From the NCBI RefSeq assembly GCF_009914755.1, contig NC_060927.1: 64,000 nt of DNA; one strand, written 5' to 3'. Shown here in pieces: positions 1-62,802 of the stretch. The notes beneath the pieces were generated by a model. It did not search any database and was not told the DNA's origin. It saw only the letters and a list, made by a program, of their open reading frames with translations. How positions within the stretch are numbered: position 1 is the first letter of the stretch; the number at the start of each line of letters is the position of its first letter. The DNA comes from the human T2T-CHM13v2.0 reference genome, Homo sapiens. Made by a program: the position numbers and the translations under genes.

Positions 1-216
1 CCTACATATTTCTCCCACTTTGGATGCTTCCTGCCCTTGAACATTGGACTCCAGTTTCTTCTGCTTTGGGACTCTGACTGGTTTCCTTGCCCCTCAGCTT
101 GCAGAGGGCCTATTGTGGGACCTTGTGATCATGTGAGTTGATACTACCTAATAAACTCCCTTTTATATGTATAGATCCAATTAGTTCTGTCCCTTCAGAG
201 AACCCTGACTAATACA
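1..216 (+). mobile_element. MLT2A-like (ERVL/HERV-L) LTR, 3' part (5' part outside window)
   Basis: Diagnostic CCTCAGCTTGCAGA.GGCCTATTGTGGGACCTTGTGATCAT-GTGAGT, AATAAA at ~150, and terminal GAGAACCCTGACTAATACA. Confidence 0.9.
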
Positions 217-2410
217 ACATTGAAATCATGTTTCATTTTCATTGATTGTTCATGGAATTCATGGAAATGCCTTGGACATTTTGAATCAAAAACATTCTGA
301 TCAAAATAGACCCGTAGGGTACTATAATGAACACTGGGATCTTGTGTCTAAAGGACTGTCACCTTTTATAACAGCAATAACTGCTACTTCCCTGTTAATA
401 AGAGCAACCAAATGATAGGATCTCTCATCACTATTTTAGTCTGCATTCTGTGGAAGTGCTTCTAAACTTGTACCACACTCAAACTTATTCAGTTAGTAAA
501 CTAGTTTCTTATGATGTTCTTCCTTCTGCTCCCCATTTTACTATCTCCAGATGAAATAATCTAAATTCTGTCACTCTTCTGTCCCTGCCTTCAGAAGAAA
601 TGCCATATAATTGTATAATCTTAACCAACCAGCTTCTCTCTCCTAGAATAAACCTGTAAGAAGCCTCCCTTGCTAATTCTGATGTTACTTGGTATATAGA
701 TGGATTTTACTTAAAGGACAAATGTGAAATTTATCACTCAGGTTATGCTATAGCATCCTTGACCGAAGAAATAGAACATTCTTATCTTTCAGGATTGACC
801 AGAACTCAACGAGCAAAATTAATAGCATTAGTTGGAGCCTGCAAATTTTTAAAAAGAGTAACTTCTCATATTTATACACATAGCAGATACAGTTTTTGGG
901 TAGTTCATGACTCTGAAATGCTTTGGAAATAAATAGAATTTTTAACTTATTGTAGTCAGTCCATAAAAATGAATACATTGTTGCAGAATTACTGGAATTA
1001 TTGGAAGCCATACTATTAACCAAATCATTAGATATTATCAAGATCCCAAGCCATTCAAAGTCAGACACTCCAAAAAGCAAGGGAAATTAATTAGAAGATA
1101 GTACAGCAAAAAGAGTGCCCTTAATGTATTAGAACAAGAAAACCAACCCATTTTATCTTTTTAGAAAGCACTTGATTTTGATACAATAATTTCAAAAATT
1201 CCAACAATTAACACAATCAAAAGTTCCAAAAACAGAACAAGAAAATTGGGAAACAAAAGGGCGGATGTATTCCTCCACAACTGAGATATGGTATGGACCA
1301 AACAGTTTATTACACTTCCAACCAAATTACAGTCATCTTTCTCAAGTTACATATTTCCATGATTAAACCCAGTGGGGCCCCAGAAAGATGGTTTGTTGGG
1401 GGAAAACGATATTAATAGGAACATTCTCCAGTGGTTGTTCATAAGATGTTGCTATATCTCCATAAAACATAATCCAAGATAAACTTTACACAGTTCTCAA
1501 GGTAATTTTTCTTTACCAGAAGGCCCTTTCAAGGGATGACCACTAAATTTTATTTGGCTACCACTATCACAAGAATACAAGTACGTTCTAATGATGACTT
1601 GTATGCTTTCTCATTGAGTAGAAGCACTTCTATGTAGAAGAGAAACAGCCTTAGCAGTAAGTAAAATTCTCTTAGAAGAATTATTGCAACTTGTGGAGTT
1701 CCCTTAGTACTTCATAGTGACAGAGTCACTCATTTTACTGGACAAATAATGCAGTCAGTATGTAAAATTTGGCCTATTCTCCAACATTTCCAGTGTGCCT
1801 GTCATGCCCAGTCACTATCATTCTGTTAGTGGAATGCACAAACAGAATCATCAAAACTTAATTGGCAAAATTAACTGAGGTTTTAAAAATTCCTTGGCTG
1901 CAAGCTCTTCCATTTGTTTCATTTGACCTAAGATCAACCCCTTTTTGTAAATACCAACTGTCTTCATTTGAAATCCTAACAAGCACACCTATACAACTGT
2001 CTCCAGAAAATTGTCAATCTATGATATTAAAAGGGAATATGTTGTATTATTGCAGCAGCCTTATGAGGCAGCTAACACAAAACTGTATTTCAGAAGACTC
2101 TTTCCATGGTGAGTGCCCATGATATGAAATCTCAAGTACCACAGAATTCAACCAGGAGGTTTTGTCTATTAGAAATGATATCTTTTAAAAGATTCTCTTC
2201 AACCAAGGTAGAAAGGACCTTATCAGGTGTTCCTAACCAACCCCCGTGCTGCTAAGCAAAAAAAAAAAAAAGAAAGAAAAAAATCAATTTCTGGATTCAT
2301 ATCACGAATTTAAAGACAACTGCTTTGCCAATTTGGACTTCATCTCATACCAGTGATCTAAAATTGAAATTTGTCAAAACCAGCAAGAATGAGAAAAAGA
2401 CATCTGTGAT
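217..2410 (+). pseudogene. pol: Decayed class I (gamma-like) ERV pol: RT connection, RNase H, integrase
   Basis: Translated fragments NALDILNQKHSDQNRPVGYY, TWYIDG..SGYA, QRAKLIAL, HIYTHSRY (RNase H, ~687-930), YKYVLM..VEA, LHSDRVTHFTGQ (integrase core), KGPYQVFLTNP; many stops and frameshifts. Confidence 0.88.
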
Positions 2411-49836: not shown

Positions 49837-51661
49837 AGGTTATAATTTTTAAAGTTAAAATAATAAGGAGTAGTGTCCTGAAATTATCTTGTAATACTTC
49901 CTCACTATCAGGTATTGACAACGAAAATATTTCCATTCCAATTGAAAAATGGTATGTGCATATACGTGTTTATAAATAAACATTATGAAAAGACAAATGT
50001 AATGTTGTGTAAAAATAAATGAACTCATGGATATAAAGTATCCCTTTAATCTCGTGTTATGTTTATTAATTTCAAATGAAACAAAGCAGTGGCCATAATA
50101 TCATTCATTGTGTCCTATGTAAGAAGTCATATGATAAATTTTCCTTAGAATTTAGCATATAAAGAGTTTGATATACTTTATAACACCCTATCCCTAAATG
50201 CCACAAGCCAGACACAGAAGCCATGCAAAAGTGACTATCACACACAGGTACAGAGTACCACCAAGCAGAAAGGGGTTAATACTGCAGAGAGAGCCCCAAA
50301 GTACAGCTTGAGGAACACAGGGAGTCATCCCAAGACCTTCACTTGGCTGCCATGGAAACAGCAAACACTATAAGCTTTGCTTCATTCAGTCTTCCGAAAT
50401 GAAACGTTAATAGGGAAGACTCACTAACACTTGTGGTGAACACGGTTAGCAAGGATGCAATGTGTCTCCTGGGCTGTAGGACTCCGTCTGCTTCAGCTGA
50501 ACTCTCAGAAATTACAGATGAGAGAGATATATGCATATGCACATACATATACACATATCTGTATGCACACAGATGTATTTAAATGAAGGTGCATACACTG
50601 GGCTAAAATACAAACAACAGAAATCAAAGGTCATATAATAAAAGGCTAAATATAACACAGGCCTAGAACTAGCTCCTGGTTGGGAGCTGGGGAAAGGTAC
50701 ACAATTTGTGGTGGGCTGGGAAAACTATGTACACAATTAGTGGTGGGCAGGGAAGGCATCAGTGTAGAGAACTCAGACTCACTTCACAATACTGGCCCAC
50801 AGGAATGTGTGATGTTATCTCATGTACATAAATAGACTCTAACCTTGCTTTTGTGCAAACCAAGCTTGGTAGGCACCCAGGAGGACCGTGGGTTTGTCTT
50901 GATGACAGGGCACTGCACCACACTGCTGCTAAACCTTCCAGCCCTAGGAACTCACCTGCTACCATCCCCTTACACTCCCTTTTAGGCCCTTGGGCTTTTT
51001 CCCATCCAACACCTAGAGCCTGAGGCCTGCCAAACTACCTAGCTTCACATGACTAATTGCAGTGACTAACTTCATGGCTTCCTGCAAGCAAGGTCCTTCT
51101 GTATCTGTCTCTTTCTCTGACCCCAATATGAAAACATTTCTGTAAATGTCTGGCACCTAATAAACATGATGGTTGTGGACAATGTCACAAGTACACAGGA
51201 AGACCCAGTAACAAGACATGCAAGGTGAGGGCAAGGGGCGCTGAGCTGCTCTAGCATTTCAAAACCAGGACTGTAGCTTTCCATACATTCAGCGGGGTAG
51301 GAGAAGGGATGTGCAGAGCTGATGACTTCACTGGCTCCTCAGCAGCATGTACATTCAAATTGAAGATGTCTTGAGAGCCCCACTATACCCAAATCGTGAG
51401 TCTGGTCACTCCTCTAGCAGAGCTTGGTGCAGTGACAGCTAGAAAAGCTGAGTTCCAATTGAGTCTGTTGCACCAGAGTTCTTTTGAAGATGCTCAGCAA
51501 AGTAATTATTTTCTTTTGAGCAGATGTACAGCACATCCATGAGAAGGCCAAGTAAAGGATGCTCTCCAGCCCAGTCAAATGATCCAATCCCCCTACTATC
51601 TCAGACCCCTCTGAGTTTCTTCCTATGGCCGCCCTCACTGTACAGAAATAGCGGAGCAGCA

Positions 51662-52609
51662 TCAGGGTGAGTCATCAATGGTGGGCAGCCAGAAGACCAT
51701 GCTGGAACACGCACTGGCAAAAGTCATGAACTTGGGGTTGAACTGCAAACAGGTAATTGGGCCGGTGTGTTTACCATCCAACACAGCTACTTTTATACCA
51801 CTCTCTCCATTCCAGACATGGATCTTGCCATCCTCTGAACCAATCATAATAAACTGAGAATCTGGAGTAAATGAAGCCTCCAGTGTGACAGCTTTGCTGT
51901 TGGCATAACCCTCAAACGTGTGCATCACCACTCCTTTGAAAGCATCAATGAGGGAAATGAAGCTGCCGTTGGTGGAAATGAGGATGACCTTGCCATCGTT
52001 GCTGAATTTAAGTCCTGTCCACTCACAAGTTCGATTACACTGCATCCTAAAGGTAGTAAATGGCCCTTTATCAAAAGAACGAAGGTCGTAAAGTTTGACC
52101 ATCTCAGAGTTGACACCTGCAGCCAAAATTAACCCTTCTGGATCAAAAGAACAAACTGGCTTCCCCTGTAGACTCATGAGGCCCTGGCAGTTAGGAGCCC
52201 GGAGATCCCAGAGTCGAATGGTCTTATCAAGAGACCCAGAAATGAAAATGTCATCCACAGGTGACATGGACAAGGCCACCACTCTTTTGCTATGTCCAGG
52301 AAAGTATCTGATGTATTTGTTGTCATGCAAGGACAAGTAACGAATAGTATCGTCTATTTTGTTAGAGCTGTAAACAGCTGTGTTTGCCTCATGAGTGTAT
52401 CTGATGAGGTCCACGCCATATTTCTTACTGTACAGGGTTCTCTTTGGTTTGCCCTCCTGGCAGTCATATAGCACGATGGAGTCGTCGTTGCTGCTTGAGA
52501 TGACCGTCTGGCCGTTGGGGCTGAAATCGAAGCAGTTAATCTTGTCCGAGTTTTCGCAAAACACCCTGGCGACGCGGAAGCTCCGCAACACGCTGTCGGT
52601 CAGCTTCAT
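51662..52609 (-). CDS. WDR82: Intact WDR82-like (Swd2/COMPASS, PNUTS-PP1 subunit) WD40 protein, 315 aa
   Basis: [14 protein letters not shown]...[13 protein letters not shown]...FWLPTIDD(SP)*; ATG at 52609 in GCCGCCATG Kozak context; no frameshift or premature stop; expression unproven. Confidence 0.7.
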
Positions 52610-52910
52610 GGCGGCGGGTGGGGAAGGCAGCCGGGACTGGCAGCGGGCGGGCTGCTGAGGGGCCAACCCCTGGTGGCGGCGGTGTTGAGCCGGTGGCTAG
52701 CGAGAAGTCGGCCGGCAGTGGGGCCGCCTCCTTTTCTTCCTCCTGCTTGGACGACTGTCTTCCGCCTCAACTGTGGAGCCTCGCCGACCGTTAGTCCTCA
52801 CAGACACCTCAGGGGCAACCGACGCAGCGCCACCTCATCGTGTCCGCCATCTTGGGGCGACGGCCAGAAGTCCAGGGCTAGGAGCCTCAGCCGGCGGACG
52901 CCAGGAAACA
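52473..52910. promoter_or_regulatory. CpG island with YY1-type motif (CCGCCATCTT, 52844-52853)
   Basis: ~41 CpGs counted by hand in ~430 bp, against CpG-depleted surroundings. Confidence 0.75.
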
Positions 52911-54542
52911 GGTAGGGATAGATATTTTCATTGAATATGAAACGCAGGATTGGAAGGGATTTTTTTTTCCCTAATGGAAATTTTAGGATTTTTAATTTTT
53001 TTCATGTATTTTCTGTTGAAATTCATCTCTCTTATTATTGCTGTTTTGAAGGTAATGCTTCTTATCTTGCTCATTCAGGTAGAATTTTTTGTTCTTTGTT
53101 TTCTGAAGTCTTCCTATGATATGTCTGTGTGAATTGAAAATTATTAGAAATCATTTTTCCTAGATTTCGCAGAGATTTTTGTGTATTTGACTTGGCGAAG
53201 TCTTTTTTCTCTTCTTTGCTTCTAGGATTTCAGTTACCATAATAATATTGGATCTTTGCGGTATGTCTTTTACACTTTTCATCTTTCTGTGCTTCAATTT
53301 GGGTATTTTTTTCTGTCTCATCTTCCAGTTTATTTATTCTCTTCTTTTTGGTGATATCTACTGAGTCACTAATATATCTTAATTATATTTTTCCAATTCT
53401 AGAATTTTTATTTAACTTTTTATAGATTTTATTTAACTCTTTATAGATCAATATTGATATTTTATATTTGTAATTGAATATATATAGAAAATATAAATGC
53501 AATTTACATTAATATTATATATGCGAATATAAATATCTATCATCTACATATCTTTAATGACAGAAGAGTGCATTAGTATCTGGTTTAGTGATTTAAATAT
53601 TTAATAAAAATTAAGTAAGATAATCTTTCATGGTATCTTCTAGAAGTCTACTACATCAAGATAAGCACTAAACCAACATTTGTATTCCCTTAGTACATGT
53701 AGATTTTACCCTTACCTGAGAATTGTAAACTACAATCAAGTGTGATATAATTGTATATGTGTTTGTAACACACCTTTACTATAACCAAAAACTTTGAATG
53801 TGAAAACCATTATTTCAAACTACAGCATTTATTGATATTTTATTAAACTTACTATTTATTTTTGCTATCCGAGAGCAATTTAAAATTAAGAGAAGCAGCA
53901 ATGGACATGTATTATTGAGAATTTCAAATCTAAGATATCATTTTTCTTTTAAGCACAAGCAATCTATATAGTTACTATATTTGAAGTCGTACTCTGACCA
54001 ACCTCAATTTCAAATTTGTAGCTAGCTGACCCAAAATAATGATATTGGTCTGGCGACTTCATGCCTTATGGGACTTGTGGAGAAAAAAAAAAAAACATAA
54101 TCGATCTTCTTTCATGAGATGTTGAGCCCTGTAGGCTTCCTTCAAAGGAGTTCTTTGTCCTCATGTAGAAAGAGTAAAGGAAAGGAAGAAGGAAAGAAAG
54201 AGCCCAACTGGGTTTTAATACAGAGTCTGTGAAAGTGATTCAGTGAGGCAGAAAGCTTCATTGCGAGTTTATGATACAGGTCCAGTTACAGGCAACAAAG
54301 AGAAAGTAAATTCCAAAAATCTTTTCAAAAAAGTAGATTTAAAAACAACAATGATAACGCTGGAAAGCCAGATCAAATCAAGAGTTGTAACCCCCAAAAT
54401 TAACAAATCTAGAGAAGTGAAAAAAAAAATTCCTGTGCTAAATTAGTTTCATTAAATGGCCATCAATTCATGTTAACTTCCTATGGTGGTAACACTATCA
54501 AAAATGTTTTTTCCTATTTCCTTTGTTTCTGGTAACACTATT

Positions 54543-54880: not shown

Positions 54881-55480
54881 ATATTTTGGCTTACAATATA
54901 TTAACCTATAGCATAATAATGTTAACCTATAAAATTCATGGCCCTTCACATAAAAATCTGGATTTTCAACTTCGCTTAGAAGAGAGAAATATGGGAAAAT
55001 ACCAGGCCAACAATTTGCTATGGAAATAGTTTGCTGGAGCTCCGCTCTCTTTAGACTGTGTACATTCCTTTGCCATAGTACTTATTTCTCTTATTATCTG
55101 CCAGATTGAGATGTTTGTTAACTTTTGTGGAAGCTTGGATTATTTAATTGTAAATTTAGGAGAAAGATTTTTCTTCATGCGTCTATGAAAATATGAAAAA
55201 AAAGGCTAGTGGTCTGTGCACTTTAGATAAATGGTAGTAAGCACTGTTCTTAGTAGAAGTGAAGAATATTTATTCCTTTTTATATTCAAGGTGTGTTGTT
55301 GTGAAAAGAGTAAAGACACTGTTTAAAAAATAAGTCACATTAAGATACATGCCAGAAATTAGAATTTTTAAATGACTAAAGAAGGAAAAAGAGCAACCAG
55401 AAATAAAAGTGGCAAGCCAGCATGTTTTATTTTAGATGTTGTGCTGCATATAAGCCCTTCTCTTTGAACACCCATATCTT

Positions 55481-58400
55481 TTTAAAAATTATTTTTGTTT
55501 TTCTTTATTTCTTCTAAAAAAAAACCAAAATGGGATATATATACATAATATGCAGGGTTGTTACATAGGTATACATGTGCCGTGGTGGTTTGCTGCACCT
55601 ATTGACTCGTCCTCTAAGTTCCCTCCCCTCTCTCCTCACCCCCCAACAGGCCCTAGTGTCTTTAGTTTCGCTCTCTGTGTCCATGTATTCTCACTGGTCA
55701 ACTACCTATTACGAGTGAGAACATGCAGTGTTTGGTTTTCTGTTCCTATGTTAGTTTGTGGAGGATGATGGCATCTAGCTTCATTCGTGTCCCTACGAAG
55801 GACGTGATCTAATTCTTTTTATGGCTGCATAGTATTCCACGATGTATAGGTACCACATTTTCTTCATCCAGTCTATCACTGATGGGCATTTGAGCTGGTT
55901 CCATTTCTTTGCTATTGTAAACAGTGCTGCAATAAACAAATGTGTGCATGTGTCTTTATAGTAGAATGATTTATAATCCTTTGGGTATATACCCAGTAAT
56001 GGGATTGCTGGGTCAAATGGTTCTGGTTCTAGATCCTTGAGGAATTGCTATACTGTCTCCCACAATGGTTGAACTAATTTACATTCCCATGAACAGTGTA
56101 AAAGAGTTCCTATTTCTCCACAGCCTTGCCAGCATCTATTGTTTCCCAACATTTTAATAATCACCATTCTGACTGGCATGAGATCATATCTCATTGTGGT
56201 TTTGATTTGCAGTTCTCTGTTGATCAGTAACGTTGAGCTTCTTTTCATATCTCTGTTGGCCACATAAATGTCTTCTTTTGAGAAGTGTTCATATCCTTTG
56301 CCCACTTTTTGATGGGGTTGTTTGTTTTTTTTTCTCATAAATTTGTTTAAGTTCCTTGTAAATTCTGGATACTAGATGCTTGTCAGATGGGGGTAGATTG
56401 CAAAAATTTTATCCCATTCTGTAGGTTGCCTGCTCACTCTAATGATAGTTTCTTTTGCTGTGCAGAAGCTCTTTAGTTTAATTAGATCCCATTTGTCAAT
56501 TTTGGCTTGTGTTGCAATTGCTTTTGGCATTTTTGTCGTGAAGTCTTTGCCTATGCCTACATCCTGAATGGTATTGCCTAGGTTTTCTTCTAGGGTTTTT
56601 ATGGTTTTGGGTTTTACATTTAAGTCTTTAATCTATCTTGAATTAATTTTTGTATAAGATATGATGCAGTGGTCCAGTTTCAATTTTCTGCATTTTTCTA
56701 GCTAGTTTTCCCAGCACCATTTACTGAATAGGAGATCCTTTCCCCATTGCTTGTTTTTTTTCAGGTTTTTTGAAGATCAGATGGTTGTAGATGTGTGGTA
56801 TTTCTGAGGTCTCTGTTTTGTTCCATTGGTCTATATGTCTTTTTTGGTGCCAGTACCATGCTGTTTTGGTTACCATAGTCTTGTAGTATAGTTTGAAGTC
56901 ACGTAGTGTGATGCCTCCAGCTTTGTTCTTTTTGCTTAGGATTGTTTTGGCTATACCGGGACTTCTTTGATTCCATATGAAATTTAGAATAGTTTTTCCT
57001 GTTTCTGCAAAGAATGCCAATGGTAGTTCAATGGGAATAGCATTGAATCTGTAAATTACTTTGGGCAGTATGGCCATTTTCAGGTATTGATTCTTCCTAT
57101 CCATGAGCATGGGATGTTTTTCCATTTGTTTGTATCCTCTCTTATTCCTTGGGCATTGGTTTGTAGTTCTCCTTGAAGAGGTCCTTCACATCCCTTGTTA
57201 CCTGTATTCTTAGGAATTTTATTCTCTTTGTAACGATTATGAATGGGAGTTCCTTCATGATTTGGCTCTCTGCTTGTCTACGGTTGGTGTAAAGGAATGC
57301 TTATGATTTTTGCACATTGATTTTGTATCCAGAGACTTTGCTGAAGTTGCTTATCAGCTTAAGGAGTTTTGGGCTGAGATGATGGGGTTTTCTAAATATA
57401 GAATCATGTCGTCTGCAAAGAGAGACAATTTGATTTCCTCTCTTTCTATTTGAATGCCCTTTACTTCTTTCTCTTGCCTGATTTCCCTGGCCAGAACTTC
57501 CAATACTATGTTGAATAGAATTGGTGAGAGAGGGCATCCTTGTTTGGTACTGGTTTTCAAAGGGAATGCTTCCAGCTTTTGCCCATTCAATATGATATTG
57601 GCTGTGAGTTAGTCATAAATAGCTCTTATTATTTTGAGATATGTTCCATCAATACCTAGTTTATTGAGAGTTTTTAACATGAAGGGATGTTGAATTTTAT
57701 GAAAGGCCTTTTCTGCATCTATTGAGATAATCATGTGGTTTTTGTCATTGGTTCTGTTTATGTGATGGATTACATTTATTGATTTGCACATGTTCAACCA
57801 GTCTTGCATCCCAGGGATGAAGCCAACTTGATTGTGGTGGATAAGTTTTTTGTTGTGCTGCTGGATTCAGTTTGCCAGTATTTTACTGAGGATTTTCACA
57901 TCGATGTTCATCAGGGATATCGTCCTGAAGTTGTCATTTTTTGTTGTATCTCTTCCTGGTTTTGGTATCAGGATGATGCTGGCCTCATAAAATGAGTCAG
58001 TGAAGAGTCCCCACTTTTCAATTTTTTGGAATACTTTCAGAAAGAATGATATGAGCTCCTCTTTGTACCACTGATCAAATTCATTGGAGAATCTATCTGG
58101 TCCCGAGGTTTTTTTGTTTGGTAGGCTATTAATTACTGCTCCAATTTCAGAACTTGCTATTGATCTATTCAGGGATTCAACTTCTTCCTGCTTTAGCCTT
58201 GCGAGGGTGTATGTGTCCAGGAATTTATCTCTTTCTTCTTAATTTTCTAGTTTATTTTCATGGAGCTATTTATAGTATTCTTGATAGTAGTTTGTTTTTC
58301 TGTGGGGTCAGTAGTGATACCCTCTATCATTTTTTATTGAGCCTGACTCTTCTCTCTTTTCTTCTTTATTGGTCTAGCTAGTGGTCTATTTTGTTAATTG

Positions 58401-61400
58401 TTTTTCAAAAAACCAGCTCCTGGACTCATTGAATTTTTTTTTGGAGGACTTTTCATGTCTCTGTTTCCTTCAGTTCTTCTCTGATCTTAGTTATTTCTTG
58501 TCTTCTGCTAGCTTTTGGATTTGTTTTCTCTCTAGCCCTTTTACTTGTGATGTTAGGGTGTCAATTTAAGAACTTTCTAGCTTTCTGATGTGGGCATTTA
58601 GTGCTATAAATTTCCCTCTTAACAATGCTTTAGCTGTGTCCCAGAAATTCTGGTACATTGTCTCTTTGTTCTCATTGTTTTCAAAGAACTTCTTGATTTC
58701 TGCCTTAATTTCATTATTTACCTGGGAGTCATGTAGGAGCAGGTTGCTCAGTTTCCATGTAGCTGTGTGGTTTTGAGTGAATTTCATAATCCTGAGTTAT
58801 AATTTGACTGCACTGTGGTCTGAGAGACTGTTTGTTATGATTTCAGTTATTTTGCGTTAGCTGGGGAGTGTTTTACTTCCAATTATGTGGTCGATTTTAG
58901 AGTAAGTGCCAGGTGGCACTGAGAAGAATGTATATTCTGGTGATTTGGGATATAGTGTTCTGTAGACATCTACTGGGTCCACCTCATCCAGAGCTGAGTT
59001 CAAGTCCTGAATATCCTTGTTAATTTTCTGTCTTATTGACCTGTCTAATACTGACAGTGGGGTGTTATAGTCTCACACTATTATTGTGTGGAAGTCTAAG
59101 TCTCTTTGTACATCTCTAAGAACTTGTTTTATGAATCTGGGTGCTCCTCTATTAGGTGCATATATATTTAAAATATTTAGCTCTTCCTGTTGAATTGTTC
59201 CCTTTACCATTATGTAATGCCCTTCTTTGTCTTTTTTGATCGTTGCTGGTTTAAAGTCTGTTTTGTCAGAGACCAGGATTGCAATCTCTGCTTTTTTTTT
59301 TGCTTTCCATTTGCTTGGTAAATTTTCCTCCATCCCTTTATTTTGAGCCTATGTATGTCTTTGCACATAAGATGGGTCTCCTGAATACAGCACCCCAATG
59401 GGTCTTGACAATTTATCCAATTTGCCAATTTGTCTTTTAACTGGGATATTTAGCTCATTTATATTTAAAATTAGTATTGTTATGTGTAAATTTGATCCTG
59501 TTATGATGTTATCTGGTTATTTTGCACACTAGTTGATGCAGTTTCTTTTTAGTGTCATTGGTCTTTATATTTTGTTGTGTTTTGCAGTGGCTAGTACAGG
59601 TTTTTCCTTCCCATATTTAGTGCTTCCTTCAGGAACTTTTGGAGGGCAGGCCTGGTGGTGATGAAATCCCTCAACATTTGCTTGTCTGGAAAGGAATTTA
59701 TTTCTCCTTCACTTATGAAGCTTAGTTTGGCTGGATATGAAATTCTGGGTTGAAAATTAATTCATTTAAGAATGTTGAATATTGGCCCCCACCCTGTTCT
59801 GGCTTGTAGGGTTTCTACAGAGAGATCTGCTGTTGGTCTGATGGGCTTCCCTTCGTAGGTGACCTGGCCTTTCTCTGTGGCTGTCCTTAACAGTTTTTCC
59901 TTTATTTCGACCTTGGAGAATCTGATGATTATGTGTCTTGGGGTTGATCTTCACATGAAGTATCTTAGTGGTGTTCTCTGTATTTCCTGAATTTGCATGT
60001 TGGCCTATCTTGCCAGGTTGGGGAAGTTCTCCTGGATAATATCCTGAAGTGTGTTTTCCAGTTTGTTTCCATTCTCCCCGTCTCCTTCCGGTACTCCAGT
60101 CAATCATAGGTTTGGTCTTTTTATGAGGTCCCATATTTCTTGGAGGCTTTGTTCATTCCTTTTCATTCTTTTTTTTTTTTTTCTAGTCTTGTCTGAATGT
60201 CTTATTTCAGCAAGGTGGTCTTCAACCTCTGATATCCTTTCTTCTGCTTGGTTGATTCAGTTATTGGTACTTGTGTATGCTTCACGAAGTTCTCATGCTG
60301 TTTTTCAGCTCCATCAGGTCATTTATGTTCCTCTCTAAACTGGTTATTCTAGTTAGCAACCCCTCTAACCTTTTATCAAGTTTCTCCGCATCTTTGTATT
60401 GGGTTAGAACAGGCTCCTCTAGCTCAGCGTAGTTTCTTGTTGCCCATCTTCTGAAGCTTACTTCTGTCAATTTGTCCATCTGATCCTCTGTCCAGTCTGT
60501 GTCCTTGATGGAAATAATGTTGCGATCATTTGGAGAAGAGGCACTCTGGCCTTTTGGGTTTTCAGCATTCTTTCATTCATTCTTTTTCATCTTTGTGAGT
60601 TTGTCTAGATTCAATTTTTGAGGCTGCTAACCCTTGGATGGGTTTTGTTGGGGGCTTTATTTGTTGTTGATGCTTTGTTGTTGCTTCTGTTAGTTTGTTT
60701 TACTTTCAATGGTCAGGTCCCTCTTCTGCAGGGCTGCTACAGTTTGTTAGGGGTTCACTTCAGGTCCTATTCATCTGATTCACTCCCACGCCTGGAGATG
60801 TCACTCAAGGCGGCTATAGAAGAGGAAAGATGGGTGTCTGCCCTTTCTTCTGGGAACTCTGACCTCGAGGGGCTCCAATCTGATGCCAGTAGGATCGCTT
60901 CTGTATAGGGTATCTGACAACCCCTCTTGGAGGATCTCACACAGTTGGGTGACATGGAGAAGGGGATGTATTTAATGAAGCACTTTGTCCTTGGTGGAGA
61001 GGGTGTGCTTTGCTTGTGGGAAACCCGCTCATCTGGGCTGCTCTGATTCCTCAGAACTACCAGGAGGAAAGGCTAAGTCTGCTGCTCCGGAGACTATGGC
61101 CACCTCTCCCCCAGGGGCTCATTTCCAGGGAGATCCAGGTTCTATCCCTGAGCCTCTGGCTGGAGTTATTGGAGTTCTTGCAAGGAAGCCCTTCCCAATG
61201 AGGAAGGATGGGTCAGGGTCAACACACAGATGGCCACAGCCGGTGTGTTGGGCTGTGGAAGACCAAGCTATCCAGCCTCCCTGGCTGCAGCAGGGGAAAA
61301 GCCCAGTCTGGAGCTATTGAGATGGATGCCACCCTTCTCCTGCTCAGGGAGCTTAGTGTGTTAGGCAGTTGAGAGTCTCAGTGTTGGCTGCTGCCCCTCC

Positions 61401-61801
61401 CTCAAGGAGCTCAACTGGCTTAGCAGGCAGTGGCAGCCGGTGCTGGTCACCCCTCCCCTCTGGAGTTCCTTAGTCTTCAGCAGATTCCAGCTGAGAGGCT
61501 GTTGAGAATCTGTGCATTCCAGGGTTGGGACACTAGGCTCCGGTGGCACGGGTTTGCGAGTGGGATCTTCTGATCTGTGGGTTGCACAGTTCCGTGGAGA
61601 AAGCATGGTTTCCCCGGCTGGGTAGCACACTCACTTACTGCCTCCCTTAGCTAGGGAGAGGGGTGTCGCTTGCTCAGTGTGGGTCTCAGGTGGGCTACCA
61701 CACTACACTGTTCTTCCTTCCTCTCATGGCTCATGCCAACCTCTTAGTCAGTTTTGATGAGAGAACCTGAATACCTTGGTTGCTGGTGAAAGATTCACAC
61801 A
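55481..61801 (-). mobile_element. Near-full-length LINE-1 (L1PA8A-like); ORF1 ~60590-59570 and ORF2 ~59504-55698 both disrupted; lacks the first ~70 nt of the 5'UTR
   Basis: ORF-track fragments: endonuclease CCIQETHL / LNIYAPN, RT QGCPLSP and [11 protein letters not shown]-terminal [18 protein letters not shown]; T-rich tail at 55481-55515. Confidence 0.95.
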
Positions 61802-61944
61802 ATGATCACAAGGTCCCACAATAGGCCGTCTGCAAGCTGAGGAACAAGGAAACCAGTTGTGACTCAAAGCTGACAAACTTGAAGTCCTATGTTCAATGGC
61901 ATCCAGCACAGAAGAAAGATGAAGGCTGGGAGCCTGAGCCAGTC
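61802..61944 (-). mobile_element. MLT2A LTR-derived exon 5'-transduced with the L1 (inside the TSD)
   Basis: Reverse complement GACTGG..CCTCAGCTTGCAGACGGCCTATTGTGGGACCTTGTGATCAT aligns to window positions 1-132; TSD TTGAACACCCATATCTT at 55464-55480 and 61945-61961. Confidence 0.88.
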
Positions 61945-62802
61945 TTGAACACCCATATCTTAACAATCTTTTTAAGTTTCAGGAACTTGAAATATTATCA
62001 TTATCACCTATGATGTGATATATAATAAATATTCTATCAGTGTTAGTGGAAGGCAAGGCCTAAGGAGGTTGAAATGTATATAATCATTTTCTCAGCCATT
62101 CTTGTTGCCAGAGTTTGGGCATGTGATTTGAGCTACATCTATCAGATGCACTGCCCTAGACTTTGAATTAAGAGTAAAAGGTTAAACCATTTGGGGACAA
62201 TAAGTATCTCTTTCTCTTGTTCAGGCTAATTGCAGCAAGATGGACTCTGAGGTGGCATGTGCTTCATGCCAATTACTGATCTAGTGCTATTAGTGTCAGT
62301 AGAACCACATCTAGATTACAGTGGAGATGGTCATGGTTTTCTCACCTGTTTTGAGCAGTGATTTGGGACATTGTTACTGACACTGAAAACTCAATTAGCG
62401 GAAGTTAGTTTCTTTTATTTCAACTAAGGGCCCTTAGAGTCAACTCAAATTGGTACCAAAACCCTTTCAGATTTTCAGAAAATCTTCATTAGTTACCTGG
62501 ATTAAAGGCAAGAGAAATAAAAAGTACTATACAGGAATGAGATTCTATTAGCTTGTAGTAAGCTATAGACAGATTAAACCAAACATTTTCCAGAAGTGTG
62601 TAACAAAGGGGGCAGGCTTAAGTGAACCATAGGTTTAATCAAGATAATGATGGCCACAGACTCTAATAAGGGTAAAAAGAGAATAAAGAGGTGGTAGGTT
62701 TAGTGGATTGTAACTTCAGATTAGTTTGAAGTCCATTGGACTAAGTGTTTTAGAAAAAGTTGTTTGAAAAGAGTGGGTTTTATTTAAAGAATTGATTATT
62801 TT

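What the first reader, a model, noticed from the sequence alone, without database searches (positions are those of the whole stretch)
55464..61961. LINE-1 retrotransposed from an MLT2A-LTR-driven, spliced chimeric mRNA (spliced 5' transduction)
Seen: a perfect 17-bp TSD (TTGAACACCCATATCTT, 55464-55480 and 61945-61961; minus-strand TT/AAGA, an L1-endonuclease-type site) encloses both the L1 and a 143-bp MLT2 segment in the same orientation at its 5' end. The MLT2 piece stops at ...GACCTTGTGATCAT. The MLT2 copy at the window start continues at this exact point with the splice donor GTGAGT (133-138). The piece joins TGTGTGAATC in the L1 5'UTR, and the normal L1 start with its YY1 site (CAAGATGGCC) is absent. 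From recalled consensus, the exon begins at (A)GACTGG about 30 nt past the LTR TATA box (the expected TSS), and the L1 join follows an AG. Established: MLT2A/HERV-L LTRs are DUX4-responsive promoters at cleavage stage that make spliced chimeric transcripts. Inference: a source L1 bypassed its own promoter by using an upstream ERVL LTR first exon and retrotransposed in the early embryo or germline, possibly seeding a small chimeric subfamily.
Basis: partly seen in the sequence, partly recalled or inferred. Interest (0 to 1): 0.9.

Follow-up and report, generated by a model that had tools for sequence, protein, structure and literature searches.

The report
Embryo-LTR exon spliced onto jumping LINE-1
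An old, now broken LINE-1 copy on human chromosome 3 carries, inside its target-site duplication, a piece of a retroviral LTR that runs from that LTR's known transcription start to its splice donor, and three more LINE-1 copies elsewhere have the same cap, so LINE-1 likely jumped several times from spliced RNAs started by a promoter family known to fire in 4-8-cell embryos.

Summary
Observation confirmed. A 17-bp TSD (55464-55480, 61945-61961; TT/AAGA) encloses a 143-nt MLT2 piece and a near-full-length dead L1, both on the minus strand. In intact LTR copies the piece starts ~211 nt into the LTR (published TSS 205-215) and is followed by GT in 27 of 29. The L1 join follows AG in 23 of 29 relatives and skips ~70 nt including the YY1 site. 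Recombination at a 7-nt microhomology would give a junction 3 nt shorter. No sibling and no source locus were found, so the 'subfamily' idea is unsupported. New result: a screen for MLT2 exons that stop at the donor gave 17 hits, and all 4 that lack upstream LTR lead into a sense L1 5' end (this one, C1:151.02 Mb, C1:185.06 Mb with TSD, C12:123.25 Mb; three L1 types). The other three have 23-82 nt of extra sequence before the L1, which favours cis-splicing. Spliced L1 5' transduction is published (8q21.11, RAP1GDS1); an MLT2A-capped class did not appear in my 10 literature searches. Embryonic timing is inferred. New variant of a known kind.

The parts
61945..61961 (-). Target-site duplication, copy at the 5' end of the element (site TT/AAGA); its last A could also be the first base of the exon
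   Evidence: A precedes the start point in all 29 intact LTR copies
61802..61944 (-). MLT2 (ERV-L LTR) first exon, 143 nt: published TSS region to splice donor; MLT2A1-type layout; 7-nt internal deletion; no upstream LTR (U3)
   Evidence: PMC8559712
55481..61801 (-). Near-full-length old primate L1, beginning about 70 nt into its 5' UTR directly after the AG of relatives; ORFs broken
59076..59348 (-). ORF2 fragment (endonuclease region, residues 69-142)
57870..58238 (-). ORF2 fragment (residues 427-549)
55481..55514 (-). Decayed poly(A) tail
55464..55480 (-). Target-site duplication, copy at the 3' end
1..220 (+). Separate ordinary MLT2 LTR used for comparison (donor GTGAGT at 133-138); 84% to the exon like other family members, so not singled out as its source

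Best explanation
The element is one L1-type insertion (17-bp target duplication, A-rich tail) whose 5' end is an MLT2A LTR exon joined exactly at the LTR's splice donor to an AG-preceded site in the L1 5' UTR, so it was likely copied from a spliced RNA that an MLT2A LTR upstream of a source L1 started, probably in the cleavage-stage embryo or germ line. Shown: the boundaries, the splice-site match and three more such chimeras. Inferred steps: (1) a solo MLT2A LTR lay upstream of an active L1 in the same orientation; (2) the LTR promoter fired and its donor spliced to a cryptic AG about 70 nt into the L1, removing the rest of the LTR, the intervening DNA and the L1 start; (3) the RNA still carried both ORFs, so its own ORF2p copied it to the 5' end into a TT/AAGA site; (4) the copy has neither the LTR promoter nor the YY1 site and left no detectable offspring.
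For: TSD and tail enclose both parts. Start matches the published TSS window 205-215, and the end falls near the published donor at about 350 (PMC8559712). AG precedes the join in 23 of 29 relatives. The junction has exact splice-product length, 3 nt longer than a join at the shared C(A/G)TGTGA microhomology (read). Of 17 screen hits, all 4 exon-only pieces are followed by a sense L1 5' end; one has a matching TSD about 6.4 kb downstream. Those three have 23-82 nt of extra sequence before the L1, as an acceptor in the source's flank would give. In one, a paralogue of that sequence has a pyrimidine-rich run and AG at the join. Cis precedents: 8q21.11 (PMC12350158) and RAP1GDS1, with an acceptor 15 bp upstream of the L1 (PMC13174262).
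Against: No source locus: none of 43 MLT2 copies lay within 1.35 Mb upstream of any of 119 listed L1 5' ends, though both lists are small samples. The sources of the extra sequence in L100 and L110 were not found. The acceptor is poor by consensus, with 4-9 pyrimidines in the 20 nt before the AG. In 15 of 17 published mRNA/L1 chimeras the donor gene has no intronic L1, which the authors read as trans-splicing. The TSD of L099 was not found as an exact 13-mer and that of L110 was not sought.
Confidence: 0.68

Rival explanations
1. Trans-splicing: the MLT2A exon came from an LTR transcript at another locus and was spliced onto a separate L1 RNA, which then retrotransposed.
For: It predicts the same TSS start, donor end and AG. 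No source was found. The acceptor here lies inside the L1, so no flank is needed. It was proposed for most of 17 mRNA/L1 chimeras.
Against: The three sister chimeras carry non-L1 sequence between exon and L1 start, which an L1-promoter RNA would not have. Source loci this old can be lost or too diverged for my limited search.
Confidence: 0.22
2. Template switch or RNA ligation during insertion: ORF2p left the L1 RNA near its 5' end and continued on an MLT2A-initiated RNA.
For: A 7-nt microhomology, C(A/G)TGTGA, is shared by the LTR donor region and the L1 join. It also predicts a TSS start and sense orientation.
Against: A switch at that microhomology gives a junction 3 nt shorter than seen. 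Exact donor plus AG by chance is about 7e-4. All four chimeras end on the same donor base.
Confidence: 0.06
3. Separate events: a pre-existing or later MLT2 fragment sits next to a 5'-truncated L1, and the boundaries come from deletions.
For: Donor-truncated LTRs do occur without the exon-only form (L109 keeps the ~24 nt of upstream LTR that I fetched). Empty sites could not be checked.
Against: A perfect 17-bp duplication at an endonuclease-type site lies outside both parts. There is no LTR sequence in 216 nt upstream. Chance of the three coincidences is about 5.5e-6.
Confidence: 0.03

Closest known systems
8q21.11 source L1 with spliced 5' transductions (PMC12350158; passages read)
   Same: External promoter, first exon spliced to acceptors inside the source L1, RNA retrotransposed in the germ line.
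   Different: There the promoter belongs to one lncRNA gene and the source is known, with 22 offspring. Here it is a multi-copy ERV-L LTR, the events are old and independent, and no source is known.
mRNA/lncRNA-LINE-1 chimeras and RAP1GDS1-L1PA2 promoter co-option (Law and Burns, PMC13174262 and its preprint; passages, methods part 1, term search of 6 supplements, part 1 of 3 plus one row of Table S5)
   Same: Sense first exon ending at a donor, near-full-length L1, TSD; acceptor inside or just upstream of the L1.
   Different: Their 17 cases are gene exons. 'MLT2' has 0 occurrences in main text and in 6 supplements, and two exon strings were absent from Table S5 (long cells are cut and one PDF was unreadable).
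MLT2A1-initiated chimeric RNAs of 4-8-cell embryos (PMC8559712 passages; review PMC13690279 passages)
   Same: Same start window and donor; the review says 71-80% fuse to other TEs, particularly LINE1 and Alu.
   Different: The passages read describe RNA only; here such RNAs are fixed in DNA as L1 insertions.
SVA_F1 (MAST2 exon 1 on SVA; named in PMC12350158; mechanism recalled)
   Same: A foreign first exon sits on the 5' end of a retrotransposon.
   Different: SVA_F1 became a subfamily; no sibling of this junction was found.

Membership tests
L1 insertion made by target-primed reverse transcription | Target-site duplication at an endonuclease-type site | tested here: met
   17 bp, TT/AAGA
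L1 insertion made by target-primed reverse transcription | 3' A-rich tail and L1 ORF2 homology | tested here: met
Spliced L1 5' transduction (external promoter, cis) | Non-L1 5' segment inside the TSD, in sense | tested here: met
Spliced L1 5' transduction (external promoter, cis) | Segment starts at a transcription start and ends at a GT donor | tested here: met
   PMC8559712
Spliced L1 5' transduction (external promoter, cis) | Join follows an AG acceptor | tested here: met
   AG in 23 of 29 relatives, but weak pyrimidine tract
Spliced L1 5' transduction (external promoter, cis) | Source locus with the exon upstream of a matching L1 | tested here: inconclusive
   43 x 119 coordinate check negative, samples incomplete
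Spliced L1 5' transduction (external promoter, cis) | Empty orthologous site lacks both parts | not testable with these tools
   no other primate genomes held
MLT2A1 LTR exon | LTR of about 444 bp, TSS 205-215, donor about 350 | tested here: met
   relatives: ~211 + ~151 + 83-87 nt where no repeat expansion; Dfam label itself not checked
L1PA8A subfamily | Diagnostic 3' UTR and 5' UTR positions | not testable with these tools
Chimeric subfamily (SVA_F1-like) | Several insertions sharing one junction | tested here: not met
   1 exact match genome-wide; 30 of 61 near matches inspected, none chimeric beyond the window itself; 39 of 39 non-self DNA hits cover only the LTR part

The most novel reading that the evidence does not exclude
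MLT2A LTRs, promoters of human embryonic genome activation, repeatedly launched L1 retrotransposition across several L1 lineages by supplying a spliced first exon. The genome holds roughly 5-25 such MLT2A-capped L1s, each a built-in timestamp for an L1 jump at the 4-8-cell stage that bypassed silencing of the L1's own promoter.
Probability: 0.45. Interest if true: 0.8.

Novelty: new variant of a known kind. Interest (0 to 1): 0.64.

Why it matters
When heritable L1 insertions arise, and how L1s escape promoter silencing, are open questions. A stage-specific LTR exon on an insertion marks the RNA that made it, so these copies would date jumps to the window when MLT2A is active. They would also show that MLT2A-LINE1 chimeric embryo RNAs can be written back into the genome. 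It predicts that present-day intact L1s downstream of active MLT2A copies can still move in embryos or in DUX4-expressing cells, which long-read data can test.

Tried and rejected
Siblings: junction pattern with 2 mismatches gave 61 matches (control 27), 1 exact; 30 were inspected and only the window is chimeric. Source by the exon's 7-nt deletion: 18 matches, 8 fetched; three LTRs share the deletion but are only 81-82% identical, so it recurs and does not mark a parent. The DNA downstream of those three could not be read, and a long-gap pattern linking donor to acceptor was not accepted, so that check stays open. Source by coordinates: negative. Sources for the extra sequence of L100 and L110: not found. 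The X-chromosome match to L099's middle piece (L102) is a paralogous old repeat, not the source. TSD for L099 by exact 13-mer: no copy downstream. Pfam found nothing for 5 short ORF fragments; PDB sequence search of 2 of them did. Of 17 screen hits, 8 proved to be ordinary LTRs with a changed donor region (L065, L101, L104-L108, L111), 1 keeps upstream LTR (L109), and 4 were not fetched and judged LTR-like from 5 bases only. Literature: 10 searches listed no paper on MLT2-capped L1 insertions; two searches were uninformative because the prime sign cannot be searched. PMC5932605, PMC9341517, PMC5860796 and PMC2912911 (passages) showed no LTR-exon case. Earlier scan notes were not available.

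Full report
Observation. On the minus strand the element reads: 17-bp duplication (61961-61945), 143 nt of MLT2 LTR (61944-61802), 6,321 nt of L1 with an A-rich tail (61801-55481), duplication (55480-55464). The duplication is perfect, cannot be extended and occurs only twice in the window; the site is TT/AAGA. Two ORF fragments match L1 ORF2p. The longest stop-free stretch is 154 aa, so the copy is dead. By the supplied annotation it lies in intron 1 of LINC00879, antisense.

The 5' piece is an LTR exon. All 39 non-self hits of the junction query cover only the LTR part. In 29 of them the piece starts 204-213 nt from the LTR start in 25 copies, with a TATA-like box 30-33 nt upstream in 24 (the LTR-start motif used was recalled). 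GT follows its last base in 27. Hashimoto et al. (PMC8559712, passages) place MLT2A start sites at 205-215 and MLT2A1 donors around 350, with expression from the 4-cell stage and DUX4 motifs upstream. My donor position is about 362 by LTR count, slightly beyond their round figure. The relatives' length, about 447 nt where no simple repeat has expanded, fits MLT2A1 (444 bp). No LTR sequence lies in the 216 nt upstream of the piece.

The join. In 29 L1 relatives the matching point follows AG in 23 (one locus was mis-registered by an indel), a median 62 nt after CCAAGATGG, so about 70 nt of L1 are missing. A crossover there would read GATCRTGTGAATC. The window reads GATCAT TGTGTGAATC, 3 nt longer, which is the exact splice product with two changes typical of CpG decay. 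Against splicing, the acceptor is purine-rich (4-9 pyrimidines in 20 nt). Rough chance values are 5.5e-6 for random ends and 7e-4 for a template switch.

Age. The L1 5' region is 82.5% identical to 12 relatives, which are 85.2% identical to one another. At 0.17% per My (PMC13174262) that is roughly 44-51 My uncorrected, probably inflated by CpG decay. MLT2A entered simians 45-65 My ago. The order is compatible but not proven.

Siblings and source. None found. The searches score or list only part of each family, so absence of a source is weak evidence. Absence of siblings is stronger, since the junction pattern was counted genome-wide.

A class, not a one-off. I searched for the exon's last 22 bases followed by anything unlike GTGAGT: 17 hits, control 0. 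Eight are ordinary LTRs, one keeps its upstream LTR (L109), four were not fetched, and four are exon-only pieces, each leading into a sense L1 5' end. L100 (C1:185.06 Mb) starts G-AGACTGG directly after a flank whose last 12 bases recur exactly behind an L1 3' end and tail about 6.4 kb on. It ends at the donor, has a 37-nt spacer, then a complete younger L1PA-type start, 92% to L085. L110 (C12:123.25 Mb) has no upstream LTR, a TT/AAAA site, the exon, about 23 nt, then an L1 start. L099 (C1:151.02 Mb) has the exon, about 82 nt of an older repeat whose paralogue shows a pyrimidine-rich run and AG at the join, then the same L1 type as L110. That type matches by eye the element labelled L1PB1 in Law and Burns. 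The four exons are 81-90% identical and sit on three L1 5' types with different joins, so they are independent. With an estimated screen sensitivity of 0.38, the three unselected cases imply about 8 (1.6-23) besides this one; the sensitivity comes from a biased sample. TSDs are shown for 2 of the 4.

Mechanism. The spacers in the three sisters are what cis-splicing to an acceptor just upstream of a source L1 leaves, as for RAP1GDS1. I therefore put cis promoter co-option at 0.68, trans-splicing at 0.22, template switch at 0.06 and separate events at 0.03. That no exon-only piece lacked an L1 fits the known preference of ORF2p for its own RNA (established knowledge). Timing in the cleavage embryo is inferred from MLT2A expression; the same paper shows some copies active in pineal gland and amnion, and germ-cell activity is not excluded.

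Known and new. Spliced 5' transduction from an external promoter is established: review figure (PMC6035798), 22 germline events from 8q21.11, 17 mRNA/L1 chimeras. MLT2A1-LINE1 chimeric RNAs are known in embryos. I found no report of MLT2A-capped L1 insertions in 10 searches of an open-access library, and 'MLT2' is absent from the closest catalogue and its readable supplements. Subscription papers and one unreadable supplement could hold it. Verdict: real; new variant of a known kind; interest 0.64.

Noticed in passing
L100 and L103 (G000:C1:185061800-185068400, +): Second MLT2A-exon-capped, full-length L1 with a 12-bp exact target duplication and a 37-nt spacer; younger L1PA-type, so its source may be traceable in apes or macaque.
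   Followed up: yes
L110 and L112 (G000:C12:123248277-123248830, -): MLT2A exon without upstream LTR, ~23-nt spacer, then an L1PB1-type 5' end; TT/AAAA site; 3' end and TSD not checked.
   Followed up: partly
L099 (G000:C1:151020840-151021340, +): MLT2A exon joined to ~82 nt of an older repeat and then an L1PB1-type 5' UTR; flank looks like an Alu tail; TSD not found as an exact 13-mer.
   Followed up: partly
L109 (G000:C11:91929506-91929831, +): MLT2 LTR that keeps upstream LTR sequence (only ~24 nt seen) but stops at the donor and continues into unrelated DNA; a deletion, an insertion, or intron loss by a spliced cDNA.
   Followed up: no
window 61773-61774 (-): A donor-like site (CCAAG|GTATTC) lies 27 nt after the join, about position 97 of the L1, the same number as the donor in SpIRE names. 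It was not used here and might have helped define the weak acceptor.
   Followed up: no
window 61890-61910 (-); L092, L094, L097: The exon's 7-nt deletion between short TGC repeats recurs in at least three unrelated MLT2 copies.
   Followed up: yes
window 50184-52911: By the supplied annotation the WDR82P1 pseudogene and LINC00879 start head to head and overlap; the GC-rich pseudogene 5' end may serve as the lncRNA promoter.
   Followed up: no
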